Shown in pieces: positions 9,519-39,064 of a DNA stretch of 39,064 nucleotides. The stretch's first letter is position 1; each line of letters opens with the position of its first letter. The stretch is from contig CAKKPR010000313.1 in assembly GCA_919901705.1 (NCBI GenBank), positions 1-39,064 of the forward strand. The letters run 5' to 3'. Source of the DNA: Thermodesulfovibrionales bacterium (GTDB lineage Bacteria > Nitrospirota > Thermodesulfovibrionia > Thermodesulfovibrionales > UBA1546). The translations under genes and the position numbers were made by a program. The notes under the pieces were generated by a model. It was given only the letters and a program-made list of their open reading frames with translations. It did no database searches and was not told where the DNA came from.

Positions 9519-9581
9519 CCCCTTTAAATCCTTCATGGGATAAATCCCCGATTTATCATCGCCCGCGCCTAACGAGCCCTG

Positions 9582-9610: not shown

Positions 9611-9672
9611 CACAGGACAAATTACCAATATTATACGAACTTAGCCTTTAGCCATTATTATCACAAAATACG

Positions 9673-9866: not shown

Positions 9867-9916
9867 CATTAATTATCTAATAACTGGTTAGCACAACAAT
9901 AATAAATGCATAAAAT

Positions 9917-10749: not shown

Positions 10750-10778
10750 TTGACAGCGGTTAGCATATTTGCTAACAT
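10750..10778 (+). promoter_or_regulatory. Promoter candidate with an operator palindrome in the spacer; predicts a leaderless or near-leaderless toxin-antitoxin mRNA
   Basis: TTGACA (10750-10755), 17-nt spacer, TAACAT (10773-10778). The palindrome gttagca-tatt-tgctaac is at 10759-10776. The ATG is at 10786. Confidence 0.45.
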
Positions 10779-10785
10779 TACTACA

Positions 10786-11115: not shown

Positions 11116-11467
11116 TGTAAAATATAAACCGGTTTCCCATGACCATGAGGCTTTCCTCAAAAAAGCCTTAAAGCGGAAGGGATTCAGGAAAGCATACAAG
11201 GACTTGGAGGAAGAGTACACGCTTACCCGCGAAATGCTTACCGCTCGTTCCAATTTCGGCCTCACTCAGGAAGCGGTCGCGGAGTTGATGGGGACGACAA
11301 AAAGCGCGGTTTCACGTCTGGAGGCGGTGGGGAAGCATGCGCCATCCCTGACCACTCTCAAAAAATATGCTCAGGCGGTCGGCTGCCGCCTCGAAATCAA
11401 GCTGGTTCCGAATTCTCGCCTAACCAAGTGCTCAACACGGTCTGCCAAAAAACTGGCGACCGGTTAG
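11108..11467 (+). CDS. HTH (XRE-family) antitoxin, HigA-like
   Basis: HTH segment LTQEAVAELMGTTKSAVSRLE. The toxin-first gene order is typical of HigBA. Confidence 0.8.
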   Translation: MADVKYKPVSHDHEAFLKKALKRKGFRKAYKDLEEEYTLTREMLTARSNFGLTQEAVAELMGTTKSAVSRLEAVGKHAPSLTTLKKYAQAVGCRLEIKLVPNSRLTKCSTRSAKKLATG

Positions 11468-11549
11468 CTTGGCGTGGAATTCCGGGGACACTATACTTAA
11501 TTCCTGGCGCCGTAATTCATAATCCGCAGTATACCCGCAGCAAAAAATA

Positions 11550-11621
11550 CTATCCTATTTAAGAACCCTCAAAAAGTGCCTCAGGGATTGCCACGGGCTT
11601 TGCCCCCGCCTGAATGTCCAT
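11550..11621. repeat. Direct repeat copy A (partner at 13964-14035)
   Basis: ctatcctatt...ccctcaaaaagtgYctcagggattgccacgggctttg... aligns with the partner with about 7 mismatches over the first 59 nt. Similarity is weaker beyond that. Confidence 0.75.
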
Positions 11622-11758
11622 TACAAATAGAAAGGGATCAAGCAACCCATTCAACGTCCCTCAAGCAACAAAACCTTGAAAACCTTACAAGCCTTTTTAT
11701 ATCAACTCAAAAACCGGAATAAATTTTATTCGTGTCTACCTTATCCACTTCATAACAA

Positions 11759-13021
11759 TTATGCTTCTATACCAAAAAAGAACCCAAATGGCATCACAAG
11801 TGTATGTTTGTCCACCGCGACCATCTCTGTCCCGGGATAGAGGATGACCGACATTACATGCCTTCCCTTCAGGTCCCTGGCGCAGTCCTTAAGCCCTGAG
11901 CGGTCAATATCTTCCAGTTTGTGAGACCATTTGACCTCTATCGCCACGATCTTTTCTCCGTGCTCAATGATAAAATCAACTTCTTTCCCTGTATAGATGC
12001 GCCAGTAATAAAACTGATATCTCGCATCACCAAGCGCAATGAGTTTTTTCAGCTCAGAGGCCGCCCAGGTCTCCACCATGCTACCGGTTCTACCCTGCCG
12101 TTCAAGGGTCTGCCAGTCCTCTGCTGCTGAGAGGTGGCAGGCCATGCCGGTATCGCCAAAATAGAGCTTTGGCATCTTAATGAGCCTTTTGCCGATGTTC
12201 ACAAAATAGGGCCTTAGAAAATAAATCTGATATGTGACCTCAAGGATGTCCATATATCTCCTGAGTGTTGTAAACGGAAGCCCGAGTTCCCGTGATACCT
12301 CTGAAAAGTTGAGGACCTGCCCTGTCCTGAATGAAAGGAGGTTCAGTAGTCTGTTGAAATCAGGCAGATGTTGAATGGCTGCTATGTCCCGTATGTCTCT
12401 TTCTACATACGTCTGCCTGTATGAATCAAACCAGCGTCTCCGGGCCTTGGCAGAAGTCAACAAAGAAGGCGTGGGATAACCGCCTGCAATTATGAGCCCC
12501 TTTATTTCTTCCTTTCTATCGGGGAAAGAGTGTTTCTTCCATTTCTTGAGGAGCGCTGTTGCATCTCTTTCGCTGAAGAGGTCGGTCAGGATGGAGGAAA
12601 TCGCTTTTCCACGAATCTCAGACCACGTAAAAGGCTGCAACTCATGTAGCGCTACCCTGCCGGCAAGGGTCTCGGAGACCTTTGCAATGGTCATCAGGTT
12701 GGCGGAGCCTGTGAGGAGATATTGACCCGGCTTACGGTTCTTGTCCACTATGACCTTTATGGCGCGCATGAGGTCAGGAGCCCTCTGGACTTCGTCGATT
12801 ATCGCAGGGACAGGCGTGCCGCTTATGAAGCCGTCAGGGTCTTTCAGGGCAGCGTCAAGGACAACGCGGTTATCAAGCGTGTAGCAGGCAGCGCTCCATC
12901 CAACTCCGGATAATTCCTGAGCCAGGGTGGACTTGCCGACCTGTCTTGCCCCGGTAAGGAGAACAACAGGGAAGTGTTTCAGGGAATCAACTATATCCAA
13001 AGAGAGGTGCCGTTTTATCAC
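11759..13021 (-). CDS. AAA-superfamily ATPase with C-terminal DUF4143-type domain
   Basis: Walker A in LLTGARQVGKSTL. Overall layout matches AAA_14 plus DUF4143 proteins. Confidence 0.85.
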   Translation of the reverse strand: MIKRHLSLDIVDSLKHFPVVLLTGARQVGKSTLAQELSGVGWSAACYTLDNRVVLDAALKDPDGFISGTPVPAIIDEVQRAPDLMRAIKVIVDKNRKPGQYLLTGSANLMTIAKVSETLAGRVALHELQPFTWSEIRGKAISSILTDLFSERDATALLKKWKKHSFPDRKEEIKGLIIAGGYPTPSLLTSAKARRRWFDSYRQTYVERDIRDIAAIQHLPDFNRLLNLLSFRTGQVLNFSEVSRELGLPFTTLRRYMDILEVTYQIYFLRPYFVNIGKRLIKMPKLYFGDTGMACHLSAAEDWQTLERQGRTGSMVETWAASELKKLIALGDARYQFYYWRIYTGKEVDFIIEHGEKIVAIEVKWSHKLEDIDRSGLKDCARDLKGRHVMSVILYPGTEMVAVDKHTLVMPFGFFFGIEA

Positions 13022-13170
13022 GGTTACAATTTAACCATTTAGTGGTGAAATTGTCAATATAAAAATGATTATAAAGACTACGTTTGCTCTGGCTTCATGG
13101 GCAGCCTTGTTTCGGATTTGCCTGATTTAAAAGGGGTTTTGTGTCTCCGTGGCTTTATTGACATAATCGT

Positions 13171-13611
13171 CTAAAGACAGTTCTCGTAACTCCGAAGCTC
13201 GGAAAAGTATTTCCTGTAGATGCCTCTATCTCTTGTTATAATTGCATCACACTTTGTCAGCGCATAACCTCCGATATAAAAGTCCGACAAAACATGTTCT
13301 TTCATATCCAATAGTTGCCCGCACTGAGGACATTGAATCCTGGACTTTCTTTTTAAATATTTCATCCATCTCTGACCTGCTGTTGTAACTGACTCTATAT
13401 CCAGAGGTTCAATATTTATTCTGTGCTCCTTTAAAAAAGAGTTTAAGAGTTTAATATCAGCGTTAAATTGGGGCATAAGCTCTGCATAGATAACAGATGG
13501 AGCGAGAAGGGCTTCATTTTTTTTAATCGCTGCGTATAGACTTTCCTGACAATCCCGGAACTCATCCTTCAAGACATCAATCAGGATTGTAGTATCCACA
13601 CAAACCTTCAA
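13171..13611 (-). CDS. vapC: PIN-domain toxin VapC
   Basis: MKVCVDTTILIDVL N-terminal acidic PIN motif and a C-terminal ITRD motif. Its start overlaps the upstream antitoxin stop by 4 nt. Confidence 0.85.
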   Translation of the reverse strand: MKVCVDTTILIDVLKDEFRDCQESLYAAIKKNEALLAPSVIYAELMPQFNADIKLLNSFLKEHRINIEPLDIESVTTAGQRWMKYLKRKSRIQCPQCGQLLDMKEHVLSDFYIGGYALTKCDAIITRDRGIYRKYFSELRSYENCL

Positions 13612-13829
13612 GAGACCTTCCCCCTGACTTCATTTATGTATTCATCAGTCGTTTTACTGTTTTTGAATCTCCCACGCCACCTTTTTTTTAATTCATTAAT
13701 AGGCTCCAGGACAAGGATATACTTATCTCCTTTTCTGGCTATGTCAACTTCAGTTCCAGGGGTAATTTTGAGTTCTCTTCTGACTTCTCTTGGAATTGTG
13801 AGCTGATACTTTGCGGTAACCCTCGACAT
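13608..13829 (-). CDS. vapB: AbrB/MazE/SpoVT-fold antitoxin VapB
   Basis: MSRVTAKYQLTIPREVRRELKITPGTEVDI swapped-hairpin motif. I prefer the ATG at 13829, which is preceded by GGAGGTGA, to the track start at 13844. Confidence 0.8.
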   Translation of the reverse strand: MSRVTAKYQLTIPREVRRELKITPGTEVDIARKGDKYILVLEPINELKKRWRGRFKNSKTTDEYINEVRGKVS

Positions 13830-13847
13830 CTTAATCACCTCCATTGC

Positions 13848-13877
13848 GGTATACTATTAATCATAAAACAGTATACC
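13848..13877 (-). promoter_or_regulatory. Inverted repeat upstream of vapB (autoregulation operator candidate)
   Basis: ggtatact (13848-13855) and agtatacc (13870-13877), separated by a 14-nt AT-rich spacer. Confidence 0.5.
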
Positions 13878-13963
13878 CTCTTTGCATCTCCTCTGTCAAA
13901 CATCCTGCATCGGCTTAGTAACCCATGAGGGATCGCGAGCCTGTCCCTCAATTTCTAGAATTA

Positions 13964-14035
13964 CTATCCTATTCGAAAGCCCTCAAAAAGTGTCTCAGGG
14001 ATTGCCACGGGCTTTGTCCTCGCAATGACATCAAA
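13964..14035. repeat. Direct repeat copy B (partner at 11550-11621)
   Basis: See copy A. Together the two copies bracket the ATPase plus VapBC block. Confidence 0.75.
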
Positions 14036-14072
14036 ATGCTGTGCAGGTGAAATATTTTTTCAGGGAGGGGGA

Positions 14073-14098
14073 GGGGCTTCCAGGGGGGTGGAAGCCCC
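14073..14098 (-). terminator. 10-bp hairpin just downstream of ftsZ
   Basis: ggggcttcca (14073-14082) pairs with tggaagcccc (14089-14098) across a gggggg loop. It lies 19 nt after the ftsZ stop. There is no clean U-tract. Confidence 0.4.
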
Positions 14099-14116
14099 TT
14101 GTGGGGGGAAACAACT

Positions 14117-15277
14117 TTATAAACTACGCTGTGAAGCCTTTCTCATAAACGTCGGGATATCCAGCGGGTCTTCATACGGCATCAGGTCGCTGGCTGCTGC
14201 CGGGGCCACTGCGTACTCAGGCTTGAGATTTTTCGCAAGGATCCTGTCTGAGCCTTTAAATGTTATTGGCTCTTTTACAGGCATCCACTTCTTAATCTGC
14301 GGCAGCTCGACCTTTTCTTTCTTTTCCTCAAAGCCTGTTGCAATCACGGTAACCCTGACCTCGTCTTCAATATCAGGATTAATGACCGCGCCGAAAATTA
14401 TGTTCGCTTCATCATCTGCCATGTCATATATAAATGCAGCTGCCTCCTGAACAGAGCTTTGTGAAAGTTCAAGGCCGCCGGTAATATTGATAAGCATTTT
14501 CTTTGCGCCCTCAATGGAGGAATTTTCAAGTAGTGGATTTGAGATAGCCTTCTTGGCTGCCTCCAGAGCGCCATTTTCTCCTCTGCCAAGGCCCACTCCC
14601 ATGACAGCCCTTCCGGCATCTGCCATTATGGTCTTTATATCCGCAAAATCGAGGTTTATAAGGCCGGGGATAAAGATCAAATCCGATATGCCCTGAACAG
14701 CCTGCCTCAGCACATCGTTTGCCACGGCAAAGGACTTGAGCATCGGTGTGCCTTTTTCAACAACAAGGCCTATCCTGTCATTGGGTATAACAATCAAGGC
14801 ATCAACATATTTCTGAAGTTCTTTCATGCCAATATCCGCATTGATAGCCCTTTTTCTTCCTTCATAGAAAAATGGTTTTGTTACAATAGCGACTGTCAGA
14901 GCGCCAAGCTCCCTTGCAATGCCTGCGACAACCGGTGATGCTCCGGTGCCGGTGCCTCCGCCCATGCCTGCTGTTATAAAGACCATATCAGAACCCCTGA
15001 GGCATTCGGCAATAGCTTCTTTGTCTTCCAAGGCCGCCTCTTTTCCGATTTCGGGATTCGAGCCTGCTCCAAGGCCTTTTGTCAACTCCAGCCCTATCTG
15101 CACCTTTATTGGAGCAAGTGAAGTTTCAAGAACCTGGCTGTCTGTATTCACTGCTATAAATTCAACACCATGGAGATTAGAGGCTATCATGTTGTTAACG
15201 GCATTCCCTCCGGCGCCTCCAAGCCCTATAACCTTTATACTTGCTCCCTGCCCTCTTACTTCTTCCATTTCAAACAT
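14117..15277 (-). CDS. ftsZ: Cell division GTPase FtsZ
   Basis: GLGGAGGNAVN and GGGTGTGASPV tubulin signatures. C-terminal DIPTFMRK peptide. Confidence 0.97.
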   Translation of the reverse strand: MFEMEEVRGQGASIKVIGLGGAGGNAVNNMIASNLHGVEFIAVNTDSQVLETSLAPIKVQIGLELTKGLGAGSNPEIGKEAALEDKEAIAECLRGSDMVFITAGMGGGTGTGASPVVAGIARELGALTVAIVTKPFFYEGRKRAINADIGMKELQKYVDALIVIPNDRIGLVVEKGTPMLKSFAVANDVLRQAVQGISDLIFIPGLINLDFADIKTIMADAGRAVMGVGLGRGENGALEAAKKAISNPLLENSSIEGAKKMLINITGGLELSQSSVQEAAAFIYDMADDEANIIFGAVINPDIEDEVRVTVIATGFEEKKEKVELPQIKKWMPVKEPITFKGSDRILAKNLKPEYAVAPAAASDLMPYEDPLDIPTFMRKASQRSL

Positions 15278-23045: not shown

Positions 23046-24521
23046 TCAGGACAAACCCCTCACAAATTCCTTAAACTGTCTGCCCCTGTCCTCAAAATCC
23101 CTGAACATATCAAAGCTTGCGCACGCAGGCGAAAGCAGCACCACATCCCCTCTCGATGCACACCTTCTGGAAATCATTACAGCCTCTTTAAAGTCATCAG
23201 CAAATCTGGTTTCAGTCAGGTCTCCCAAAGCCTTATTTATTTTTTCCCTTGCCTCTCCGATAAGGACAAGGGCTTTTACCCTTTCTTTTACGAGAGGCCT
23301 GAGGATAGAAAAATCGCCTGCCTTATCTCTGCCTCCTGCAATCAGGATTACAGGCTCTGAAAAACTCTCAAGTGACTTTATCACTGCTCCGACATTTGTG
23401 CCCTTTGAGTCATTGATATAATCCACGCCGTCAAGGTCCCTGACAAATTCAAGCCTGTGTTCAAGCCCCGGGAACTCCTTCAGGGTTTTAACAATTGCAT
23501 CAACGGGACATTTTGCAAGGAGAGCCATGGCCGAAGCAGCCATGGCATTCTCCAGGTTGTGAACACCTTTGATTCTTATTTCATCAGCCCTGATGAGTTG
23601 AGAGTCAGTGATACCTGAACAGACTGAACCATCTTTGAGATAAACACCTTTTACTTCCTTTTGCCGGCTGAAGAAATATACATCAGGCAATCCTGAATCT
23701 TGAAGCTTGTCTCCTCGGCGACTCGCCTGAGGCGAGAATCTTGAATCGTATAACCTCATGACTTCAGGATCATCCGCATTAAGCACAAGAAAATCCTCTT
23801 TCTTCTGATTCAAAAATACCTGCGCCTTTGCATCCCTGTATTCATCCATGGAATGGTATCTATCGAGATGGTCAGGCGTGATATTAAGAATGGTCGCGCC
23901 ATTGGGCCTGAACTCATCTATTGACTCAAGCTGAAAGCTTGATACCTCTGCGACAATATAAGCAATAGATGCATGATTCATGATGCATGATTCACGATGC
24001 ACGTTATCCTGTATCTTGTATCCTGCATCCTGCATCAGTTTCCCTATCTCCTCTGTCAGCGCATTCCCTATGTTTCCGCCAAGGATAGCCTTAAACCCAC
24101 TATTTTTAATCATCTCATAAAGCAAGGTTGTAGTAGTTGATTTTCCGTTTGTGCCAGTTACGGCTAAAAACTCTGTGCGCTCTGCTCTCTGCCCTTTGCT
24201 CTCTCTTATAATCTGATATGCAAGCTCGAGTTCACCGATAATCTTTATGCCTGCATCTTTTGCCTTTTTCAAAGGCGGAATATCTAACGGAACGCCCGGG
24301 CTTATCACTATCAAATCCGTATTCTTAAATATCCCGTCAGGATGGCCGCCCAGGGCAAGCCTCACAGAGGGCAAAAGCCTCTCAACAAATTCTATTAATT
24401 CCCCTTTTGATTTCTTATCAGTAACTGTCACTTCTGCGCCACTACGAGCAAGCAGATTGGCCGCCCCCGCCCCGCTCCTTGCCAGGCCGAATATGAGTAT
24501 TTTCTTGCCTTTTATTTCCAT
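23046..24521 (-). CDS. murD: UDP-N-acetylmuramoylalanine--D-glutamate ligase
   Basis: Motifs ILIFGLARSG, VTGTNGKSTT and SSFQLE. It carries three repeat-encoded segments (listed as separate features). Confidence 0.93.
   Translation of the reverse strand: MEIKGKKILIFGLARSGAGAANLLARSGAEVTVTDKKSKGELIEFVERLLPSVRLALGGHPDGIFKNTDLIVISPGVPLDIPPLKKAKDAGIKIIGELELAYQIIRESKGQRAERTEFLAVTGTNGKSTTTTLLYEMIKNSGFKAILGGNIGNALTEEIGKLMQDAGYKIQDNVHRESCIMNHASIAYIVAEVSSFQLESIDEFRPNGATILNITPDHLDRYHSMDEYRDAKAQVFLNQKKEDFLVLNADDPEVMRLYDSRFSPQASRRGDKLQDSGLPDVYFFSRQKEVKGVYLKDGSVCSGITDSQLIRADEIRIKGVHNLENAMAASAMALLAKCPVDAIVKTLKEFPGLEHRLEFVRDLDGVDYINDSKGTNVGAVIKSLESFSEPVILIAGGRDKAGDFSILRPLVKERVKALVLIGEAREKINKALGDLTETRFADDFKEAVMISRRCASRGDVVLLSPACASFDMFRDFEDRGRQFKEFVRGLS
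23690..23745. repeat. GC-rich quasi-palindromic mini-element with heptamer flanks, in-frame in murD
   Basis: The core cttgtctcctcggcgactcgcctgaggcgagaa (23706-23738) is identical to 25607-25639. It is flanked by atcttga-type heptamers on both sides. Confidence 0.85.
23968..24037. repeat. Two abutting heptamer arrays in murD: gatKcaY x5, then tgYatcY x4
   Basis: Units read directly: gatgcat gattcat gatgcat gattcac gatgcac, then gttatcc tgtatct tgtatcc tgcatcc tgcatca. The two unit types are approximate reverse complements. Confidence 0.85.
24171..24207. repeat. Degenerate ctctgcN heptamer run in murD
   Basis: ctctgtg cg ctctgct ctctgcc ctttgct ctctctt. It encodes SKGQRAERTE, just before the P-loop VTGTNGKSTT. 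The unit is related to the murC array. Confidence 0.6.
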
Positions 24522-24525
24522 ATCC

Positions 24526-25665
24526 TTAACTGAAAAGTCCGGAAGCGCTGAAGGCCTCCGCCCTTATGCTTTTCTGTTCTCCTTTTTTCCCGATCTTCTT
24601 AGCTTCCGCGCCTTTACGTTTCCGGCCTTCCACCACTGTTGCCTGAGCCTTTTTTGATTTTTTCTTTGCTAAGGCCTTTGCATACTTTGATTTCTTACCC
24701 CTGGAATTTTTTTTGTATGCTGCCTTCCCGGCAGGCTTCGTGTAATCCGCTTTTGTAAAGTAAATAACCGGCTGCCCGTCGCGTGCTATAACATCAAAAC
24801 CTTTTCCCTCCAGTTGTTCTGCCTCATCCCATAGCATCTTTCTGCTTGGCGCTCCCAGAATAGCAACGATTACTGTCTCGCCTTCTCTTTTCCCTGCATA
24901 TACAAAGCAATGCCTTGCTAATCTTGTGTATCCTGTCTTGCCGCCAACTGCTCCTTCATCAGACCACAAAAGCTTGTTCGTATTCTCAAGTGAGATTGTC
25001 CTGCCCTCAGATGTTGATATATCTGCTTCTCTGGTGCCGATAATCTCCCTTATCACCGGATATTTGAGGGCGTGCCTGAGTATTTTCGCAAGGTCGTATG
25101 CTGTTATCTGCTGCCCTTTTCCAGGAAGCCCTGTTGCATTTATAAACTTTGTGTCAGACGCGCCAATCGCAGCAATTTTCCTGTTCATAAGTTCCACGAA
25201 CTTTTCTTCTGAGCCGGCAACATGTTCTGCAAGCGCGAAGGCAGCGCCATTGGCTGACCTCAGAAGCGCAGCATAAAGCAGTGTCTCGACAGTCACGGTC
25301 TCGCCTGGCTTAAACCTGGTCCCTTTTATCGAGGGCACTTCTGCCGCCATCTCGCTTATTGTTACAGTCTCATTCAGCCGGGCCCTGTCAAGCACAACCA
25401 TTGCTGTCACAAGTTTTGTTGTGCTTGCAGGAGGCAGTCTTAGATTGGGATTTTTCGCAAAAAGGACCCTGCCGGTAGAAGCCTCCATTGCCAGCGCAGC
25501 CTTTGATTTTATTTCATCAGCAGAGACAAAAGTTGCAAACTGCAAGCTGCAAGCTGCAAGCAAAAACAAAATAAGTTTACCCGCATTTCTGGCTTGAAAC
25601 TTGAAACTTGTCTCCTCGGCGACTCGCCTGAGGCGAGAAACTTGAAACCTTCTTTTCATAATCAC
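24526..25665 (-). CDS. D-alanyl-D-alanine carboxypeptidase (S11, PBP5/6-like) with a Lys-rich C-terminal tail
   Basis: SxxK (ASTTK), SxN (SAN) and KTG (GGKTGYT) motifs, plus a signal-peptide-like [19 protein letters not shown]. The last ~70 aa are strongly K/R-rich. Confidence 0.85.
25534..25561. repeat. Tandem heptamers tgcaaac + tgcaagc x3 inside the carboxypeptidase signal-peptide region
   Basis: Read directly. They encode [10 protein letters not shown]. Confidence 0.9.
25591..25647. repeat. GC-rich quasi-palindromic mini-element with heptamer flanks, in-frame at the carboxypeptidase N-terminus
   Basis: Layout is cttgaaa x2, a core identical to the murD copy (25607-25639), then cttgaaa. 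It is read in a different frame from the murD copy. Confidence 0.85.
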
Positions 25666-33321: not shown

Positions 33322-33656
33322 ATTCATCCTAAGAAGGCTTGTTCATTTTTCTGAGCGCTCTCACCTCCTTATTGCGTTTTTTATATTCTCTCATAGAAGC
33401 AATCCTGATACCAGAATAAAAACCATTCAATTTCACAGTGTCCGGAAAATTAAATTCTTGTTTCAGGAAAGCACTTTCTTGTTTGGGAATATAATTGAAA
33501 TAATCACCTGAAAAGGTTTAATATTTTAGCAAGAATATGCGCAGGACTGCTTATGATGAGAGGTTTAAGGGGATGGGGGAGAATTTTCATTTCCTTGATA
33601 ATGCGGGGGGCGGGAGGCTGAGGAGAAAGTAAGAAATATGGTAGTGCTGATAGTGA

Positions 33657-33914
33657 TTACCGTCGCGGACAGCGAAATTCGCCGGGCATGCAAGATTCAA
33701 GACACGACCAGACGACCCACGCACAATACCTAATTTCACCCAACAATTTCTTGAGATCTTGGATAGGATCAATAAAAAATTTAGATACTATTTGGCCCAT
33801 AACAAAAACAATCACACCACCAATAATCGTAACAGAGGCTGTCAGAACAAGCTTAGTACACTCTTCCATAATTTCCTTCCGCACCAGCCTATCAGCCTGA
33901 TCCTGATTTTTCAA
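33657..33914 (-). CDS. Small protein with one predicted TM segment, possibly 3'-truncated or frameshifted
   Basis: Hydrophobic segment LVLTASVTIIGGVIVFVMGQIV. The last ~25 aa are Cys/Trp-rich and look non-native. It lies directly downstream of the 233-aa gene. Confidence 0.4.
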   Translation of the reverse strand: MKNQDQADRLVRKEIMEECTKLVLTASVTIIGGVIVFVMGQIVSKFFIDPIQDLKKLLGEIRYCAWVVWSCLESCMPGEFRCPRR

Positions 33915-33976
33915 TTATGCACAATGGGTTCAGGTTTACAACCTGAACCCGCCAAAAATTGTCGGGTTTGTTTTGC

Positions 33977-34678
33977 TTAAGCCAACCGGCCTTTATTATA
34001 TTCATCAATAAATATTAGAATTTTTTCTGCAAGTATGGTTCGTTTTTGATACCATTCGTTTGTCGTGGGAATCCATAGACCAACCTCATCCAGCATAACA
34101 CCTGTCCATATGCTTATTGAGTATGCAGATGCCCTGAAGCGTTCATTCTCGTATGTTGTTCCAAAATGAATAGAAGTCTCGCCTGGAACAAAAGTGTTTG
34201 ATATTAGAGGAAGCAATCCTGCAGCGTGAGGATGAGCGAAACAACAGAGCACGTTATACCAGTCTTTCTTTTGTCTTTTAAGGAAGTCGTCATCACCAAG
34301 TTCATCGAGCATCACAGAGTGGCAAGGGAGTCGTTTGTTAATCCTCCCATCCAGCAAAACACGCGCCTTTTCCGGCTTCTTAATCAAGTAGTGGAAGGCA
34401 ATCCAGTTTTCATAAACGTAACGGAGAAGGTTCATTGACTGCAAATAATAACCTCGAAGAGCTAAATCCACAGCACATTTCAAAGTATTAAAGTTCTGGC
34501 TAAGCAAGCCCATCTTAGCCTTGTTCACATCCGTTGTGTCCGAGTTGTTTGCAATTAAAAAGCCATCAGCAAATAATCCAACAGCATCTTGAAGCAACTG
34601 GACACGCTCAAGTAATTGTGCCTTTGTAAAGCTTTCGACTGTTCTTGCTTCACGGTCAAAATCTTCCCATGTGTCCAT
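33977..34678 (-). CDS. Hypothetical 233-aa protein, probably all-alpha, family not securely recognised
   Basis: Good SD (GGGAGG) 9 nt before the ATG, and no overlapping alternative ORF. I see a faint resemblance to DUF5677/AbiV-type proteins around LALRGYYLQSMNLLRYVYENWIAFHYL, but I cannot verify it. Confidence 0.55.
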   Translation of the reverse strand: MDTWEDFDREARTVESFTKAQLLERVQLLQDAVGLFADGFLIANNSDTTDVNKAKMGLLSQNFNTLKCAVDLALRGYYLQSMNLLRYVYENWIAFHYLIKKPEKARVLLDGRINKRLPCHSVMLDELGDDDFLKRQKKDWYNVLCCFAHPHAAGLLPLISNTFVPGETSIHFGTTYENERFRASAYSISIWTGVMLDEVGLWIPTTNEWYQKRTILAEKILIFIDEYNKGRLA

Positions 34679-34767
34679 AAAGTTTTACCTCCCTTCTTGC
34701 CACATTCAAATTCAGAAGTCTATCTTTTGAATAGCTCTCCTCATAAGTCCCAGCGTAGACGGCACAG

Positions 34768-34842
34768 GGATAGGTCTTGTTTCTATCATTCCGCATTTTT
34801 CAGTCAAATCAACTCCTTCCCATTTGACACTCACTGCTCCCC
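34768..34842. repeat. Island repeat, copy 1 (about 75 nt)
   Basis: gggataggtcttgtttctatcattccgcatttttcagtcaaatcaactccttcccatttgacactcactgctcccc aligns with 36146-36211 and 39017-39064. Confidence 0.85.
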
Positions 34843-34861
34843 TTCCCTCGCCGCTTTTTTC

Positions 34862-35056
34862 CTACTCATCCAGTGAGGTTTTGTCTATCAAGCGCCTGCC
34901 ATGAACAACAGTAACAATTTTTATCTTGTCAGCGGCAAGTTTCTCAAAGAATCCGGGTGGTAGTTTGGTCAATATCTCCGCAGGAATATCCTTTTGCTCA
35001 TTAATGCACTCGGGTAATAATTGCAGGTCTTCAGGGCTTAAATCGATATTAGCCAT
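34862..35056 (-). CDS. Hypothetical 64-aa protein; the last ~20 aa resemble a ParE/RelE C-terminus
   Basis: SD AAGGGAG lies 5 nt before the ATG. The C-terminal FFEKLAADKIKIVTVVHGRRL is similar to the terminal strand-HGxR motif of ParE-type toxins. The rest is unrecognised. Confidence 0.4.
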   Translation of the reverse strand: MANIDLSPEDLQLLPECINEQKDIPAEILTKLPPGFFEKLAADKIKIVTVVHGRRLIDKTSLDE

Positions 35057-35065
35057 AACGCTCCC

Positions 35066-36103
35066 TTATTTCAATTCCTCTCGTATCGGTAATTTTAATG
35101 CATTAGCGTCCGGAAGTTTTCCTATCAGATATTTTGGTAATTTATTGGTAAGATAGTATTCCGCAACCCCGACAGGCTTTTTTACGCTGCGCAAAGCATA
35201 TTCTACTACGATGTTGTCCTTATCCGCGCACAAAATAATACCGATAGAAGGGTTCTCGTCTTTCAACCGCACCTGTTCGTCCAGTAAATTAAGATAAAAA
35301 TCCATTTTACCTGCATATTCCGGCTCAAACTTGCCGGTCTTAAGCTCAATCGCCACAAGGCATTTCAGAACACGGTTAAAAAACAGAAGGTCAACAAAAT
35401 ATTCGTTATTCCCCAACGTAAGCCGATGCTGATTCCCTATAAAAGAAAACCCCTTACCCAACTCAAGCATAAACCGCTTTATCTTTTCAATGAGGCGGCG
35501 TTCCAATTCCCGCTCAATAACGGGTTTTTTAATATCAAGAAAATCAAGGTTATAAACGCTTTTAATGGCTTCCTGAGTTTGCTCAGTTAAATGAACCGGC
35601 AAAGCGCGCTCAAAATTGTGTTGCTTCTGTTTTTGGCTCATTTGATACGCGCCGGCTTTAATCTGATTTAATAAAACATTACGGCTCCAACCCATTTCAA
35701 CTGACGCTTTCAAATAGTACGCTCTTTCTTTTTTGTTTTTGACTTGAGAAAAGATTAGGATATTATGTCCCCAAGGCAATTCTCCAACAAGCTGTTGGAG
35801 AATTGCGTCGTCTTTATATTCAAGGTAAAACTGACGCATATACCAGAGGTTTTGGACCGAAAAACCAAAAGTGCTCTTAAAATCTTCTTTCAAATCATTA
35901 GCGAGCTTCTCAACTACCGCGTCGCCCCACTTATATTTTTCCTGCCGCTCAATAATGCTTCTTCCGATATCCCAGTATAATTTTATAAGCTCCTTATTGA
36001 CCGACCGAACTGCCTTAATCCGCGCTGAAATAATGCGCGATTTAATTTCATTCAAGAACCTAATATATTCTTTGCCGATTATGTTTTTCATCCTAATGTG
36101 CAC
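35066..36103 (-). CDS. yhcG: YhcG-family PDDEXK nuclease-domain protein (DUF1016)
   Basis: N-terminal DUF1016-type region (WDIGRSIIERQ...WGDAVVEKLANDL...FSVQNLWYMRQFY...LPWGHNILI) and a C-terminal nuclease core (FVDLLFFNRVLKCLVAIELKTGKF). Confidence 0.88.
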   Translation of the reverse strand: MHIRMKNIIGKEYIRFLNEIKSRIISARIKAVRSVNKELIKLYWDIGRSIIERQEKYKWGDAVVEKLANDLKEDFKSTFGFSVQNLWYMRQFYLEYKDDAILQQLVGELPWGHNILIFSQVKNKKERAYYLKASVEMGWSRNVLLNQIKAGAYQMSQKQKQHNFERALPVHLTEQTQEAIKSVYNLDFLDIKKPVIERELERRLIEKIKRFMLELGKGFSFIGNQHRLTLGNNEYFVDLLFFNRVLKCLVAIELKTGKFEPEYAGKMDFYLNLLDEQVRLKDENPSIGIILCADKDNIVVEYALRSVKKPVGVAEYYLTNKLPKYLIGKLPDANALKLPIREELK

Positions 36104-36145
36104 CCATTGTCAGGCTTGACTATTGATATTTGAGAACGCCTAAAT

Positions 36146-36211
36146 GGCCCGATTCTTGTTTCTTGCATCCCACATTTTCCAGTCAAATCAATTTGTCCCT
36201 CACTGCTCCCC
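36146..36211. repeat. Island repeat, copy 2 (about 66 nt)
   Basis: ggcccgattcttgtttcttgcatcccacattttccagtcaaatcaatttgtccctcactgctcccc. It lacks about 9 nt relative to copy 1. Confidence 0.85.
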
Positions 36212-36212
36212 A

Positions 36213-36269
36213 TTATCCACTTTCCTCAATGTCTGCTATTGCTCTTTCGCTCCAAATTAGTTCTGCCAT
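36213..36269 (-). pseudogene. 5' stub (18 codons) of a ParE/RelE-type toxin gene, cut at the repeat boundary
   Basis: The ATG overlaps the antitoxin 3' end. MAELIWSERAIADIEESG matches the typical ParE N-terminus. The stop falls 2 nt from the edge of island repeat copy 2. Confidence 0.55.
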
Positions 36270-36454
36270 TTCCCTGATAATCTCTTCATGGCTTCGGAGT
36301 GCGAAAATGTACGCCCTTCGCGGATATCAGCCTCTCCACTTTGAATTTTCTGAAGCAAATACAGGCGGTACATCATTTCTTCGACATCCACCTCATCAGG
36401 CAGCTCTTTAAGTATTTTTTCAATCTCAGACTTTGAAACTTGCTTTGTTAACAT
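36257..36454 (-). CDS. Small antitoxin-like protein (partner type for a ParE/RelE toxin)
   Basis: The ATG at 36454 is preceded by GAAGGAGG. EEMMYRLYLLQKIQSGEADIREGRTFSHSEAMKRL is typical of a widespread small antitoxin family. The track start at 36481 is a TTG. Confidence 0.6.
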   Translation of the reverse strand: MLTKQVSKSEIEKILKELPDEVDVEEMMYRLYLLQKIQSGEADIREGRTFSHSEAMKRLSGKWQN

Positions 36455-36600
36455 ATCCCAACCTCCTTCTCGTTCCGGCAAGCGACAATCTCATTGTATA
36501 CATTCAGTAACCCTTTATTCATCTTATATAAATAATAGGTAATGCCAGGTCATTATTGCAAGATAATATCTTTAAACAAGACCCTTGGGGACATAAATAG

Positions 36601-36699
36601 TCATACTCCGTGTTTCCTCAAATCCCTCTTCGACAATCCAAAATAATGTCCAACCTCATGGACAAGATGAAGGAAAACAGAACTCCCATTTAACTTCAT
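36601..36699 (-). pseudogene. C-terminal remnant of a small zincin-like metallopeptidase (HExxH)
   Basis: The 32-codon ORF MKLNGSSVFLHLVHEVGHYFGLSKRDLRKHGV contains an HEVGH-YFGLS motif, as in the C-terminus of minimal zincin proteins. The N-terminal ~80 aa are absent. Confidence 0.4.
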
Positions 36700-36731
36700 T
36701 TATATTCCTATATTCTTCTCTCTACCTGCAA

Positions 36732-37268
36732 TTAATCTTCATACGGCCCAAGGAACCGCTCGCCGTTGAAATGAATAAGATGCGTCGGGGATTCGGCAAC
36801 CCAGACTTCCGTCTCCCACGAGATATCGTTAAGATACTTGATCATCGCTCGCCGTTCGAGAAACGCCGTCACAAATACCAACCCGATCTTTGATCCGGCA
36901 AAAAGCTCCTTTAGCTCCTGCCTGCGCTTAGGATTTACGGGGCCGTGACTGGTCACCGCTTCGATGAGAACAAGCCAGCCTTTTTCTACATGATGCACAA
37001 CAACATCCGGCATCTTTCCATGTTCCTCAATTTCAACTCCAATCGACCTTAGAGCGTTGGGATCAAAATATGACCATTTGTCCTTAGTATTGCTAACATA
37101 AAGTACACGCCCGGACGGGGTATACAGTGAGCACAAATCATCAAGGATCTTCTTTATCAATACACTCTGCCTGCCCGGCAAAAGTTTGATCTCCTCACCG
37201 TTCGACAACGCAACTGGAAGCCTCCGCATCTCACGCTCTTGCCCATAACGCTTTTCCAAAGTCTTCAT
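36732..37268 (-). CDS. BsuBI/PstI-family restriction endonuclease, C-terminal domain only (probably a truncated gene)
   Basis: HGKMPDVVVHHVEKGWLVLIEAVTSHGPVNPKRRQELKELFAGSKIGLVFVTAF...ISWETEVWVAESPTHLIHFNG matches my recollection of that family's C-terminal domain. The ~150-aa N-terminal domain is missing, and the upstream DNA is non-coding. Confidence 0.6.
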   Translation of the reverse strand: MKTLEKRYGQEREMRRLPVALSNGEEIKLLPGRQSVLIKKILDDLCSLYTPSGRVLYVSNTKDKWSYFDPNALRSIGVEIEEHGKMPDVVVHHVEKGWLVLIEAVTSHGPVNPKRRQELKELFAGSKIGLVFVTAFLERRAMIKYLNDISWETEVWVAESPTHLIHFNGERFLGPYED

Positions 37269-37342
37269 GGCTTGCCTATACTATCACTCTTGGCTTATTC
37301 AATACAAACACAAAATGATTTGTTACAGTAGAACCTTAATAT

Positions 37343-37378
37343 CCCAAATTGGGTTTATCGCGCACCATGTGGTATAAA
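37343..37378 (+). promoter_or_regulatory. Palindrome plus extended -10 promoter upstream of the HTH gene; predicts a leaderless mRNA
   Basis: cccaa-a-ttggg at 37343-37353. TGgTATAAA at 37370-37378 lies 8 nt before the GTG start at 37387. Confidence 0.45.
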
Positions 37379-37386
37379 GTGAGTTA

Positions 37387-37674
37387 GTGAAAAATTCGCC
37401 CTACAATATTGCCTACCTTGAATTACGTCGGATCCTTAAGGACTTACGAGAAGCGAAACATTTGACCCAAGCACAACTATCTCGTAAACTTTCGGTTCCC
37501 CAAAGCTTTGTCAGCAAGTATGAGACTGGCGAACGGCGGATAGATGTTATAGAAACCGCTCAGATTTGCCAAGCACTCGAAACGTCAATGACCCAGTTAT
37601 TATCTAAACTTTCGAAGCGGCTCAAACATACTGTTAAAATTAATCCAAAAAACTCAACAAATAGGGGGACATAA
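37387..37674 (+). CDS. XRE-family HTH protein (controller-protein-like or antitoxin-like)
   Basis: HTH segment LTQAQLSRKLSVPQSFVSKYETGERRID. Its stop overlaps the next gene's start (TAATG). Confidence 0.8.
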   Translation: MKNSPYNIAYLELRRILKDLREAKHLTQAQLSRKLSVPQSFVSKYETGERRIDVIETAQICQALETSMTQLLSKLSKRLKHTVKINPKNSTNRGT

Positions 37675-38201
37675 TGGCCGTCAAAACGATAAAAAAATCG
37701 GCGATTTCGCATACTCCCGAATTGACTACCCCAGCAATGACTGGGCTAGTGGAGAAAATAAGAGTTGGCAATGCAACGGCGCGCCGTGCGGCGCAAATCC
37801 TTGTAGAAAAGCAACTTGGCTTTACTCTGCCCACACCTAAACAGAAAAAAAATATTGTTGTTGCCTTTGTGAAGAGAGACATGATCGTCTACGGTCGCGC
37901 TTTTGACATTATTAAGCTTCTTGCACCTGTCGAACTCGACGATCTATCAGAAGTTGAAGAAAAAATAAATATGATTCAGCTTTTCGAGATCAAATCGACA
38001 AACAAAGATAAAATCAGCGACAACTTTCGAGGATATTTTTTTGGACTTACTGCCGCTGAAGTTCTTGTTGCCCAAAGTCTAAAACAACAGTTCAAATTTG
38101 CCTTGGTTAACACTCTTACAAAACACCACATCGAGCTCAGCTTGAGCGAGCTGTTCGGTCGAGCCAAAGGCATCTATCCCACTTGGAGCATTCTGTTCTA
38201 A
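37674..38201 (+). CDS. Hypothetical 175-aa protein with a possible PD-(D/E)xK nuclease motif
   Basis: Translationally coupled to the HTH gene. AFDIIKL followed ~27 aa later by LFEIKST fits a D...ExK pattern. I recognise no family. Confidence 0.45.
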   Translation: MAVKTIKKSAISHTPELTTPAMTGLVEKIRVGNATARRAAQILVEKQLGFTLPTPKQKKNIVVAFVKRDMIVYGRAFDIIKLLAPVELDDLSEVEEKINMIQLFEIKSTNKDKISDNFRGYFFGLTAAEVLVAQSLKQQFKFALVNTLTKHHIELSLSELFGRAKGIYPTWSILF

Positions 38202-38240
38202 TTAAATCTATCGTCCTTTGATGCCCCCCCTCCGGCCCCG

Positions 38241-38382
38241 CCTGTTCAAATAGCGACGCCATATTTCGCGCTATCATGGCGGGAGTAAAGAACTGGCCAA
38301 TCTTCGACCGTTCACGCCGAGAGGTAGCGCCGTTCAAAGACTTACGAACGATATCCATGGTATTTGATAGCTCAACTGTCAT
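38241..38382 (-). pseudogene. N-terminal fragment of an N6-adenine DNA methyltransferase
   Basis: MTVELSNTMDIVRKSLNGATSRRERSKIGQFFTPAMIARNMASLFEQ contains the GQFFTP..IA motif found near the N-terminus of gamma-class N6-adenine MTases. Similarity is lost about 40 nt from the end of the convergent 175-aa gene. A TATAAT at 38426-38431 (minus strand) lies upstream. Confidence 0.5.
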
Positions 38383-38544
38383 GAAATGATCAGATTCCTT
38401 TCGCCCTTGTCCGCATTGTACAAATATTATAGACATTACAAGTATAACAAATAGTTTTGTTCATTATGTTACTTCATATACTCCTTCTTAATCTCATCCT
38501 TCTCCATCCTTTTTTCAACAACATCCAGGGATATCAGGCATGGG

Positions 38545-38919
38545 TTACGCTTTTTTGATCAACTCCACAAGTTTTTCGAGCTTCTTTTCCGAAATCTTCT
38601 GCCCCCGCAGCGTTCTGAACAGGATAGGCAGACTCGCTGCAACAGACTCGTTTTTAAGCAGTGCCTCGGGGATTCGGCCTGCCTCAATCCGGGCAAGGTC
38701 GAAAAAAGTGTACCAGTCGTCCGAGCCCTTCTTGATGCCTAAAAAACGGGCATACTCCTCAAGCTTGTCGCTCCCCTGCGGCGGCTGCATAAGCCCTCGT
38801 TCCAGTCTGCTGATGTTGCCGGGATCAAGCTTATTTTCAGCGCAGAACTGACGCAAAGTCTTCCTAAGGGAAATTCGCTTCTCTTTAAAGAACTCACCAA
38901 AGGTTAGTTTGGCATCCAT
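38545..38919 (-). CDS. XRE-family HTH transcriptional regulator
   Basis: FGEFFKEKRISLRKTLRQFCAENKLDPGNISRLERG HTH region. The SD-like GGGGTGA lies 6 nt before the ATG. Confidence 0.8.
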   Translation of the reverse strand: MDAKLTFGEFFKEKRISLRKTLRQFCAENKLDPGNISRLERGLMQPPQGSDKLEEYARFLGIKKGSDDWYTFFDLARIEAGRIPEALLKNESVAASLPILFRTLRGQKISEKKLEKLVELIKKA

Positions 38920-38951
38920 TGAATGTCACCCCTTTCAGTATTGTTGTATTA

Positions 38952-38981
38952 ATATTACAACGGACGGGCTGTTGTTGTCAA
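38952..38981 (-). promoter_or_regulatory. Promoter candidate for the 38919 HTH gene
   Basis: On the minus strand: TTGACA (38976-38981), 18-nt spacer, TAATAT (38952-38957). A ttgta-N7-tacaa inverted repeat overlaps the -10 region. Confidence 0.4.
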
Positions 38982-39016
38982 GACAGCAGGAAATTTTGCA
39001 GCGCAGAGAAATTTTT

Positions 39017-39064
39017 AGGGCCAGGTCTTGTTTCTTGCATCCTACATTTTTCAGTCAAATCAAT
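39017..39064. repeat. Island repeat, copy 3 (truncated by the window end)
   Basis: gggccaggtcttgtttcttgcatcctacatttttcagtcaaatcaat aligns with copies 1 and 2 over all 48 visible nt. Confidence 0.85.

What the first reader, a model, noticed from the sequence alone, without database searches (positions are those of the whole stretch)
34768..39064. A conserved 65-75-nt repeat (3 copies) partitions the right-hand island into gene cassettes
Seen in the sequence:
- Copies lie at 34768-34842, 36146-36211 and 39017-39064 (the last cut by the window end), all in the same orientation.
- They share ggtcttgtttct-N2-cat-N-cc-N-catttt-N-cagtcaaatcaa...tttg-N-c-N-ctcactgctcccc, with few mismatches.
- Copy 1 can form a gtcaaat/atttgac stem. 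Copy 2 has a 9-nt deletion there.
- Each copy lies in the spacer between a minus-strand gene end and the next gene's own promoter and RBS region, so the repeat is not itself the promoter.
- The segments they delimit differ in content: yhcG plus a small ORF in one, and TA remnants, R-M remnants and an HTH-nuclease cassette in the other.
- An inverted 10-nt match to the repeat's 5' end (aaacaagacc, 36574-36583) may be a fourth, decayed copy.

Inference: these are junction or recombination sites of a cassette-accumulating system, or the ends of a repeated insertion. I could not match them to integron attC, dif or any known IS termini.
Basis: partly seen in the sequence, partly recalled or inferred. 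Interest (0 to 1): 0.7.

Follow-up and report, generated by a model that had tools for sequence, protein, structure and literature searches.

The report
Conserved junction repeat between accessory-gene modules
A conserved non-coding sequence with a 40-47-base core (about 60-145 bases with its variable 5' part) sits three times between unrelated toxin-antitoxin, restriction and nuclease gene fragments upstream of mraZ in a groundwater Nitrospirota genome, and once each in a few related genomes. It is probably the carried-along end of small mobile gene modules, but no recombination enzyme or active movement could be shown.

Summary
The repeat ("E") is real. Three direct copies lie on the gene (minus) strand at 34766-34864, 36145-36230 and 39017-39064+. 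The 19-nt core gives 3 hits against 0.14 expected by chance.

A related contig completes copy 3 and shows the whole island, about 14 kb from tatC to mraZ. No recombinase turned up among the domain hits.

E has a 40-47-nt core (TTGATTTGACTGrAAAATG-variable 8 nt-AGAAaCAAGACCTGrCCC). Its 3' edge is fixed and its 5' ends are nested. It occurs once each in five other Thermodesulfovibrionales/Nitrospirota contigs, always co-oriented with the flanking genes, beside accessory genes, with unrelated flanks.

It is not an integron attC, not dif-like, and has no inverted partner. It matches no Rfam family, has no conserved fold and no sigma-70 promoter, and is not coding-like.

Sequence similarity continues upstream only. 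E1 and E2 both follow a parE 3' flank. Half-copies break in the variable centre.

Against a working cassette system:
- strain breakpoints do not fall at E (33534/33535);
- the yhcG block homologous to other genomes ends elsewhere (36091-34929);
- no presence/absence polymorphism was seen at E.

Best reading, at about 0.37 confidence: E is the terminal junction segment of small mobile modules, joined by an unknown activity acting in trans. The inverted "fourth copy" is a chance-level 10-mer.

The parts
34766..34864 (-). Repeat copy E1. The core is 34812->34773 and the outer tip reaches 34766. The 5' part (34813-34864) matches the 3' flank of a parE gene.
   Evidence: 5' part resembles the parE flank of L095 (read by eye)
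36145..36230 (-). Repeat copy E2. The core is 36191->36152. It has a 10-nt gap relative to E1, and its tip is mutated (AAGAATCGGGCC).
39017..39064 (-). Repeat copy E3, cut by the window end. It is complete in L002 at about 7750-7845.
36213..36269 (-). N-terminal remnant of a ParE toxin gene (MAELIWSERAIADIEESG*). Homology to intact parE stops at 36223, where the 5' part of E2 begins.
36257..36454 (-). 65-aa antitoxin partner of ParE. Homologues sit next to intact ParE_toxin genes in L091, L094 and L095.
35066..36091 (-). yhcG (DUF1016/PD-(D/E)XK). It belongs to a 1163-nt block (36091-34929) that is about 92% identical to R-M loci of other genomes. Those loci lack the repeat.
34862..35056 (-). 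Chimeric 64-aa ORF. Its first 42 codons match the N-terminus of the ORF after yhcG in L088/L090 (read as a methyltransferase start), to 34932. These are fused to the last 23 codons of ParE (34931-34862).
33977..34678 (-). 233-aa gene downstream of E1. It has a weak DUF5677 match, below the Pfam cut-off.
38545..38919 (-). 124-aa HTH gene downstream of E3, with its own TTGACA-18-TAATAT promoter at 38981-38952.
36519..36651 (-). Second junction repeat 'Z/P': the 3' end of a Zincin_1 gene plus a promoter (-35 at 36561, -10 ending at 36532).
38473..38549 (-). Third junction repeat 'X': a 24-codon gene 3' end. It is 90% identical to L002 7649-7725, and the two copies bracket E3 plus the HTH gene.
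36732..37268 (-). BsuBI/PstI restriction endonuclease domain ORF (178 aa; a remnant).
33534..33535 (.). Synteny breakpoint between co-occurring strains with identical MraZ. It lies just upstream of the mraZ promoter and marks the island edge. No repeat copy is present here.

Best explanation
E is the conserved terminal segment of small accessory-gene modules (toxin-antitoxin pairs, ORF6N genes and the like) that circulate among Thermodesulfovibrionales. It consists of a variable 5' part, an invariant asymmetric core of about 45 nt, and a fixed outer edge (...AAGACCTGrCCC).

A module carries E at its downstream (3') end. When modules are joined head to tail in a hotspot, such as the region upstream of mraZ, each E ends up between one module's last gene and the next module's first gene, so the island looks partitioned.

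Shown:
- the repeat and its fixed 3' edge with nested 5' ends;
- its linkage to upstream rather than downstream sequence;
- its presence in other species with unrelated flanks;
- half-copies broken in the variable centre;
- the absence of a fold, of dyad symmetry and of a promoter.

Inferred:
- joins are made at or within E;
- the joining is done either by a recombinase or transposase supplied in trans (none was identified in the island) or by short-homology recombination between E copies;
- later deletions produced the gene remnants now seen.
For: 1. Non-chance repeat: 3 hits against 0.14 expected.
2. The same core occurs in five other Nitrospirota/Thermodesulfovibrionales contigs, next to different accessory genes: DUF4268/PD-(D/E)XK, a radical-SAM SPL-like gene, a UvrD-like helicase and a PD-(D/E)XK+RNaseH-like gene.
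3. The window copies differ from each other by 4-7 of 40 nt. That is as much as they differ from copies in other species. L036, L057 and L013 have identical cores in different contexts. The copies therefore arrived or persisted separately and are not a recent local duplication.
4. Similarity stops sharply after the tip but continues upstream for 20-100 nt. It spans 145 nt between L045 and L057 and 98 nt between L045 and L036. E1 and E2 share GGGGAGCAGTGAG, which matches the native 3' flank of parE in L095.
5. E follows toxin-antitoxin or ORF6N genes in six of eight cases: ParE remnants for E1 and E2, an AbiEii-like gene for E3, HicAB in L057, and ORF6N in L031 and L036.
6. The core is bipartite, with invariant blocks flanking a variable stretch at positions 20-28. 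Three half-copies in L013, L057 and L045 break there. No half-copy occurs in 325 kb of control loci.
7. E lies in a strain-variable hotspot. In L031, L036 and L045 it lies at the edge between core genes and accessory genes.
8. The same architecture occurs with a different repeat in L081. There, three direct copies of a creatininase gene 3' end partition ORF6N and other cassettes.
Against: - None of the domain hits in the 39-kb window or the 9.8-kb extension is a recombinase or transposase. Several ORFs gave no hit.
- No inverted partner or dyad symmetry exceeds shuffles, and there are no attC-type core pairs. E therefore does not resemble any simple tyrosine-recombinase site or a TIR.
- Co-occurring strains differ at 33534/33535, not at E.
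- All contigs with the 233-aa gene show the same order.
- The yhcG block shared with other genomes ends at its start codon and inside the next ORF, not at E2 or E1, and lacks E elsewhere.
- Intact parE homologues lack E.
- ORF6N homologues at 91% identity lack E.
- Only 8 full copies are known. Four of them were found with an 18-mer, which inflates apparent invariance.
- The genome-wide copy number in the source organism could not be measured.
Confidence: 0.37

Rival explanations
1. Passive portable homology. E has no dedicated function. It is a stretch of intergenic DNA, originally the 3' flank of a parE-type or ORF6N-type gene, that hitch-hikes with fragments. Homologous or illegitimate recombination then reuses it as an anchor, producing direct repeats around inserted DNA (Campbell-type insertion-duplication).
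For: - The island holds two other direct-repeat families that are plainly gene 3' ends: Z/P (133 nt, 94%) and X (77 nt, 90%).
- The left-hand island has its own 65-nt flank repeat.
- L081 shows the same pattern with a creatininase 3' end.
- The 5' part of E1/E2 matches a parE 3' flank.
- The purine-rich lead-in of E resembles the sequence just after the ORF6N stop codon, where a breakpoint also lies.
- No recombinase was found and E has no site-like symmetry.
Against: - A functionless 45-nt stretch should not stay 85-100% identical across species while everything around it is replaced.
- The same fixed 3' edge recurs in 8 different contexts.
- Half-copies break at one place in the core.
Confidence: 0.27
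2. Cis-regulatory element. E is an operator, leader or RNA-level linear motif that controls or insulates the downstream accessory gene, and is kept by selection while the neighbouring genes are exchanged.
For: - E has the same orientation as the next ORF in all seven copies whose downstream ORF is held, and lies 43-170 nt upstream of its start; in L057 none is held.
- In L031 it fills most of the 105-nt ORF6N-DUF4268 spacer.
- An invariant TTGACT hexamer lies in the core.
- The neighbouring Z/P repeat is a reused promoter module.
- Several HTH genes lie in the island.
Against: - No sigma-70 promoter is predicted in E. The hexamer 16-18 nt after TTGACT is AAGAAA, AGAAAC or GAAACA (spacing read directly from the sequence).
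- By hand, sigma-54 spacing does not fit.
- There is no conserved RNA structure and no covariation, and no Rfam match.
- The gene after E3 has its own strong promoter between E and its start codon.
- The downstream genes are functionally unrelated.
- Sequence linkage is to the upstream side.
Confidence: 0.2
3. Solo end of a transposon. E is one terminal repeat (about 45 bp, tip GGGGTCAGGTC... on the other strand) of a transposon whose transposase and other end lie elsewhere or are lost, for example through one-ended or decayed insertions.
For: - The conserved core is asymmetric, of a length typical of Tn3-type ends, with a fixed outer edge and conserved interior side.
- Toxin-antitoxin genes lie next to it.
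- The resemblance to the Tn3-type GGGG tip is recalled from memory only and was not tested.
Against: - No inverted partner was found within 1.5 kb upstream of any copy.
- Across 185,579 representative genomes, no stretch holds two copies of the 18-mer.
- There were no hits in the plasmid, phage or viral collections.
- No transposase was found in any of the loci.
- The GGGG tip is intact only in the L036, L057 and L045 copies.
Confidence: 0.1
4. Small protein or leader peptide. E encodes part of a short ORF (..IDLTgKCxMQETRPxP..) that is open in all copies.
For: - Frame 2 is open across the core in every copy.
- A 3-nt insertion in L045 keeps the frame.
- In E2 and L031 the ORF overlaps the next gene's start codon.
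Against: - Substitutions are mostly non-synonymous and fall at all codon positions.
- Start codons are not conserved: E3 has none upstream, and L045 has ATA at the internal Met.
- Four of the six frames are open across the core anyway.
- ORF lengths beyond the core match random expectation.
Confidence: 0.04

Closest known systems
Integron cassette arrays and CALINs (attC sites)
   Same: A direct repeat follows each gene module. The modules are co-oriented. Toxin-antitoxin modules with their own promoters are common cargo. The repeat travels with the upstream gene. CALIN arrays, like this one, lack a nearby integrase.
   Different: E has no imperfect palindrome, no R''/R' core pair and no single-strand hairpin. 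The repeat is conserved in sequence rather than in structure. No intI or attI was found. The segments between repeats are multi-gene mosaics of remnants, not single promoterless ORFs.
Tandem islands partitioned by att-type direct repeats (e.g. SCC composite islands with integration-site repeats at rlmH; tandem tRNA-gene islands)
   Same: Direct repeats separate successive inserts in one hotspot next to a conserved gene. Some inserts lack their own recombinase. The inserts decay into remnants.
   Different: No target gene whose end is duplicated was identified for E. In L081, by contrast, the repeat is a creatininase gene 3' end. No recombinase was found. The island edge at 33534 carries no E copy.
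pdif modules (XerC/XerD sites flanking modules on Acinetobacter plasmids)
   Same: Short conserved sites bracket small modules, including toxin-antitoxin pairs, and the recombinase acts in trans.
   Different: pdif sites are 28-bp 11-6-11 imperfect palindromes in alternating orientation. E is about 45 nt, shows no dyad symmetry above chance, and all copies are direct.
Minimal mobile elements and core-gene-flanked defence hotspots (cassette exchange by homologous recombination)
   Same: Strains with identical flanking core genes (mraZ) carry different accessory genes at the same place.
   Different: Those models need no internal repeat. Here a conserved internal repeat recurs between modules and in other species.
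REP/BIME, Correia and other intergenic repeats
   Same: A short non-coding repeat lying between genes.
   Different: E is low-copy: one 8-kb stretch in each of the four representative genomes that carry it. It is not palindromic and is restricted to accessory regions.

Membership tests
Integron attC | Inverted core sites R'' (RYYYAAC) and R' (GTTRRRY), 40-150 nt apart | tested here: not met
   No such pair on either strand in any of 7 copies with 70-nt flanks.
Integron attC | Imperfect palindrome that folds as single-stranded DNA | tested here: not met
   Only copy 1 has a 7-bp stem. For copy 2 the fold z-scores are -0.49 and +0.17 on the two strands. There is no conserved pairing across copies.
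Integron attC | Integron integrase (intI) and attI at one end of the array (not required for a CALIN) | tested here: not met
   None of the domain hits in the window or in L002 beyond the array is a tyrosine recombinase.
Xer dif / pdif site | 28-30-bp site with two roughly 11-bp inverted arms around a 6-8-bp spacer | tested here: not met
   The best dyad (arms 9-13, spacer 4-10) covers 0.56-0.67 of arm positions. 149-200 of 200 shuffles do as well.
IS / MITE / Tn3-type terminal inverted repeat | An inverted copy of the end at the other terminus | tested here: not met
   The reverse-complemented tip was aligned against 1.5 kb upstream of each copy. Scores fall within shuffles. A profile search found no minus-orientation copy.
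IS / MITE / Tn3-type terminal inverted repeat | A transposase gene within or near the element, or elsewhere in the genome | tested here: inconclusive
   None was found in the loci held. The rest of the genomes could not be scanned.
REP-like or terminator-like generic intergenic repeat | Many copies genome-wide, in ordinary intergenic regions; palindromic | tested here: not met
   There are 3 copies in 39 kb, all in the island. Each of the four representative MAGs that carry it has one 8-kb stretch with the motif. It is not palindromic. The full genome of the source organism was not available.
Known structured RNA (Rfam) | A match to a covariance model, or a conserved structure with covariation | tested here: not met
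   No gathering-score hit in the window. The only E-value hit is sR38 at 14 bits, against a threshold of 50. RNAalifold gives 8 pairs, -0.3 to -0.5 kcal/mol and no compensatory change.
Sigma-70 promoter | -35 and -10 hexamers spaced 16-18 nt apart | tested here: not met
   None of the 16 predicted sites in 33400-39064 lies in a repeat copy.
CRISPR array | 24-48-nt repeats with regular 25-75-nt spacers | tested here: not met
   The spacings are 1379 and 2872 nt and contain genes.

The most novel reading that the evidence does not exclude
E is the recombination site of a previously undescribed cassette system in Nitrospirota that is unrelated to integrons. In this reading a sequence-specific, non-palindromic, bipartite site of about 45 bp is carried at the 3' end of small toxin-antitoxin or defence modules. 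An unidentified enzyme acting in trans crosses over in the variable centre of the site and stacks modules in hotspots next to core genes.
Probability: 0.15. Interest if true: 0.75.

Novelty: new variant of a known kind. Interest (0 to 1): 0.38.

Why it matters
How small defence and toxin-antitoxin modules that carry no mobility genes move between genomes and pile up in hotspots is poorly understood outside integrons. A conserved, portable end sequence shared by unrelated modules in an uncultured groundwater lineage would give a concrete way to look for the enzyme and the intermediates. If it is only hitch-hiking homology, it still illustrates how gene 3' ends and spacers are reused as junctions when such 'junkyard' islands are assembled.

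Tried and rejected
- **Integron attC:** no R''/R' pairs and no hairpin.
- **dif- or lox-like site:** no dyad symmetry above shuffles.
- **Tn3-type IR, IS6-type IR and MuA-site resemblances:** recalled from memory only. The motifs fall in the variable centre or in the wrong orientation, so they were not pursued.
- **Structured RNA, riboswitch or sRNA:** nothing found.
- **Sigma-70 promoter:** none in E. Sigma-54 and ECF spacing, checked by hand, do not fit.
- **Solitary CRISPR-like repeat** (the core resembles GTTG...AGAAAC): rejected, because conservation continues beyond it and the spacing is in kilobases.
- **Small ORF:** the substitution pattern is not coding-like.
- **E as part of the yhcG cassette:** rejected.
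- **E as an obligate partner of ORF6N or of parE:** rejected.
- **Phage, plasmid and viral collections:** no homologue.
- **Metagenome scan:** only the source contig, the L036 contig and L057.
- **Literature search** for integrons or attC in Nitrospirae and for cassette hotspots: nothing relevant. The RptR operator repeats are 9-bp palindrome-containing sites and are unrelated.
- **NCBIfam:** added no annotation for the unknown island proteins.

Full report
**Observation**

- The 19-nt core occurs three times and nowhere else in the window, against 0.14 expected from dinucleotide-preserving shuffles.
- The block CTCACTGCTCCCC is shared by copies 1 and 2.
- Nearly all island genes lie on the minus strand, so I describe the element ("E") in gene orientation.
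- A profile built from six copies gives envelopes of 34767-34864 (E1), 36146-36230 (E2) and 39018-39064 (E3, cut).
- The GTCAAAT/ATTTGAC stem exists only in E1. E2 lacks 10 nt there.

**Context**

The island lies upstream of mraZ-rsmH-ftsL-ftsI. The window comes from Hainich groundwater metagenomes. Contig L002 extends 7.8 kb past the window end. Read in gene orientation, the island runs:
- tatABC (tatC truncated), DUF559, nitroreductase, a TPR protein, Zincin_1;
- an AbiEii-like nucleotidyltransferase plus a 58-aa ORF, then E3;
- the HTH124 gene, a possible methylase remnant, an HTH_3/175-aa pair on the other strand, and a BsuBI/PstI endonuclease fragment;
- a Zincin_1 3' remnant, a 65-aa antitoxin and a ParE N-terminal remnant, then E2;
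- yhcG and a 64-aa chimeric ORF, then E1;
- a 233-aa gene, then mraZ.

None of the domain hits is a recombinase, and the array does not continue beyond E3.

**Anatomy of E**

The eight full copies are three from the window plus L013, L031, L036, L045 and L057.
- They share the core TTGATTTGACTG-r-AAAATG, then a variable stretch at positions 20-28, then AGAAaCAAGACC, then TGrCCC.
- After that point similarity stops in every pair. The exception is a few further bases shared by L036, L013 and L057.
- Upstream, similarity decays in nested fashion. It spans 145 nt between L045 and L057 and 98 nt between L045 and L036. It extends about 35-40 nt above the core between E2 and that group, and about 30 nt for E1, E3 and L031.
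- E therefore has a common 3' end and variable 5' ends. It is linked to what lies upstream of it, not to what lies downstream.

**What it is not**

- No Rfam family matches.
- RNAalifold finds eight weak pairs, about -0.3 to -0.5 kcal/mol, with no compensatory change.
- Single-strand DNA folds are unremarkable except for the private stem of E1.
- There are no attC R''/R' pairs and no dyad symmetry above shuffles.
- No inverted partner lies within 1.5 kb.
- The 10-mer at 36574-36583 is a chance-level match. It lies inside another repeat, Z/P (window 36651-36519 against L002 6832-6964, 94%). Z/P consists of a Zincin_1 3' end plus a TTGCAA-18-TATTAT promoter.
- None of the predicted sigma-70 sites lies in E.
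- A short ORF is open across the core in all copies, but the substitutions are not coding-like and the start codons are not conserved.

**Distribution**

- An exact 18-mer scan of 185,579 representative genomes gave 49 stretches. Only four are true homologues, with the rest of the core conserved. All four are Nitrospirota or Thermodesulfovibrionales MAGs, and each has one copy in the stretch held.
- A different 22-base pattern scanned against metagenome contigs returned only the source contig, the L036 contig and L057.
- The viral, phage and plasmid collections gave nothing.
- E is therefore rare and restricted to this lineage. It is not a genome-wide REP-type repeat, although the full source genome could not be examined.
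- The invariance of the 18-mer in four copies is partly an artefact of how those copies were found.

**Neighbours in other genomes**

| Contig | Upstream of E | Downstream of E |
|---|---|---|
| L031 | lpxK, then ORF6N | DUF4268/PD-(D/E)XK |
| L036 | histidine kinase, then an ORF6N remnant | radical-SAM SPL-like gene |
| L045 | truA | UvrD-like helicase, MazEF, HigBA |
| L013 | not held | PD-(D/E)XK+RNaseH-like gene, ImmA/IrrE-type gene, PIN |
| L057 | ORF6N remnant, then HicAB | not held |

E always has the orientation of the flanking genes. It lies in accessory DNA, several times right at the edge between core and accessory genes.

**Relationships among copies**

The window copies differ from one another by 4-7 of 40 core positions. 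That is the same as their distance to copies in other species. L036, L057 and L013 have identical cores in unrelated contexts. The window copies are therefore not a recent local triplication.

**Junction evidence**

- E1 follows the last 23 codons of a parE gene.
- E2 follows the first 16 or so codons of a parE gene.
- Intact antitoxin-parE homologues (L091, L094, L095) show that 36222-34932 (E2, yhcG and 42 codons of the following ORF, read as a methyltransferase start) sits where the middle of parE should be.
- The 5' parts of E1 and E2 (GCGGCGAGG..GGGGAGCAGTGAG) resemble the native 3' flank of parE in L095, which has no E core (read by eye).
- In L031 the core starts 12 nt after the ORF6N stop codon. 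In 91%-identical ORF6N loci a different sequence starts 10 nt after the stop, two bases before that point.
- Half-copies lie near full ones: left halves in L013 and L057, and a right half in L045. They break in the variable centre. No half-copy was found in 325 kb of unrelated control loci.

**Evidence against an active cassette system**

- Co-occurring strains with identical MraZ diverge at 33534/33535, just upstream of the mraZ promoter. They carry MNT/HepT or other genes and no E.
- 12 contigs carry the 233-aa gene. The 10 places shown, and 2 similar ones not shown, have the same yhcG-64aa-233aa order.
- The yhcG block is about 92% identical to R-M loci in other genomes exactly from its ATG (36091) to 34929. 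Those loci, and a 97%-identical YhcG locus, lack E.
- E therefore does not delimit the unit in which yhcG travels.

**A wider pattern**

- The island has two further direct-repeat families made of gene 3' ends, Z/P and X.
- The left-hand island of the window (HigBA, a DUF4143 ATPase and a PIN gene, downstream of ftsZ) is bracketed by its own 65-nt repeat.
- In L081, three copies of a creatininase gene 3' end partition an ORF6N cassette and another cassette.
- Direct repeats that carry along the end of the preceding unit are therefore a common scar of how these islands are assembled.

**Interpretation**

- I favour E as the conserved terminal (3') junction segment of small accessory modules. 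Joins would be made at or in its core by an activity not encoded in the island, or by short-homology recombination (confidence about 0.37).
- The main rivals are functionless portable homology (0.27) and a cis-regulatory element for the downstream gene (0.20).
- Less likely are a solo transposon end (0.10) and a small ORF (0.04).
- E works somewhat like an attC or an att-type direct repeat, but it fails every tested defining feature of attC, dif/pdif, TIR elements, REP elements and known RNAs.

**Verdict**

E is a new variant of a known kind (junction repeats in cassette-like islands) and of moderate interest.

Noticed in passing
window 36519-36651 (-) and L002 6832-6964: A 133-nt direct repeat (94% identical) made of the last codons of a Zincin_1 gene (HExGH..HGV*) plus a TTGCAA-18-TATTAT promoter. 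The same promoter module precedes two different toxin-antitoxin-type modules: an AbiEii-like gene and the antitoxin/ParE pair.
   Followed up: partly
window 38473-38549 (-) and L002 7649-7725: A 77-89-nt repeat that starts at the stop codon of two unrelated genes and encodes the same 24-residue C-terminal peptide (..DVVEKRMEKDGIKKKYMK*). Its changes are synonymous-type (AAG CGA versus AAA AGG; AAA TGA versus AAG TAA). Both copies are preceded by an A-run. It may be a gene-end relic or a frameshift extension.
   Followed up: partly
window 34862-35056 (-) and 36213-36269 (-): The 64-aa ORF is a chimera. Its first 42 codons match the start of the ORF that follows yhcG in L088 and L090, and its last 23 codons are the end of ParE. 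The ParE start (16 codons) lies 1.3 kb upstream, after the antitoxin, so parE is split by E2, yhcG and the remnant of that ORF.
   Followed up: yes
window 33534/33535; loci L059-L067: Strains with identical MraZ carry entirely different DNA upstream of this point, such as MNT/HepT toxin-antitoxin genes or a restriction endonuclease with ResIII. The region upstream of the mraZ promoter is a strain-variable hotspot.
   Followed up: yes
window 9466-14122; repeats at 11545-11609 and 13959-14023: A second small island lies between the cytochrome b gene and ftsZ, holding HigB(Gp49)/HigA, a DUF4143 AAA ATPase and a PIN gene. A 65-nt direct repeat (88% identical) with sharp edges brackets the ATPase-PIN segment. 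The island ends coincide with two inverted hairpin-containing arms (9466-9492 and 14096-14122).
   Followed up: partly
window 23694-23745 and 25595-25646: A 52-nt palindromic element (94% identical; ..CTCCTCGGCGACTCGCCTGAGGCGAG..) lies inside two coding regions: murD codons 259-276 and codons 7-24 of the D-Ala-D-Ala carboxypeptidase gene. The two copies are in different reading frames.
   Followed up: partly
L081 336-621, 2118-2315, 3457-3741 (also L080, L083, L084): Three direct copies of the 3' end of a creatininase-family gene partition a 313-aa gene and an ORF6N cassette. The architecture matches the finding but uses a different repeat, and it lies next to a CBASS-type operon in L080.
   Followed up: partly
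protein search of L031 1752-2267 (ORF6N): This 171-aa ORF6N protein has thousands of relatives. The best 120 are 75-100% identical (Nitrospirae/Nitrospirota, one Nitrospinae). That is unusually abundant and conserved for a small accessory gene. A recombination breakpoint lies 10-12 nt after its stop codon.
   Followed up: partly
L002 3986-4294: The tatC gene at the far edge of the island is called at only 102 aa, which is truncated. It is followed by a hairpin-rich spacer and a DUF559 endonuclease-like gene.
   Followed up: no
L036 (gene orientation) just after the E tip; L045; L013: The tip of E shows slippage-type changes: a perfect 14-nt tandem duplication (TGACCCCGCGTCGA x2) in L036, a CTG duplication in L045, and a 5-nt deletion between GACC repeats in L013.
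   Followed up: no
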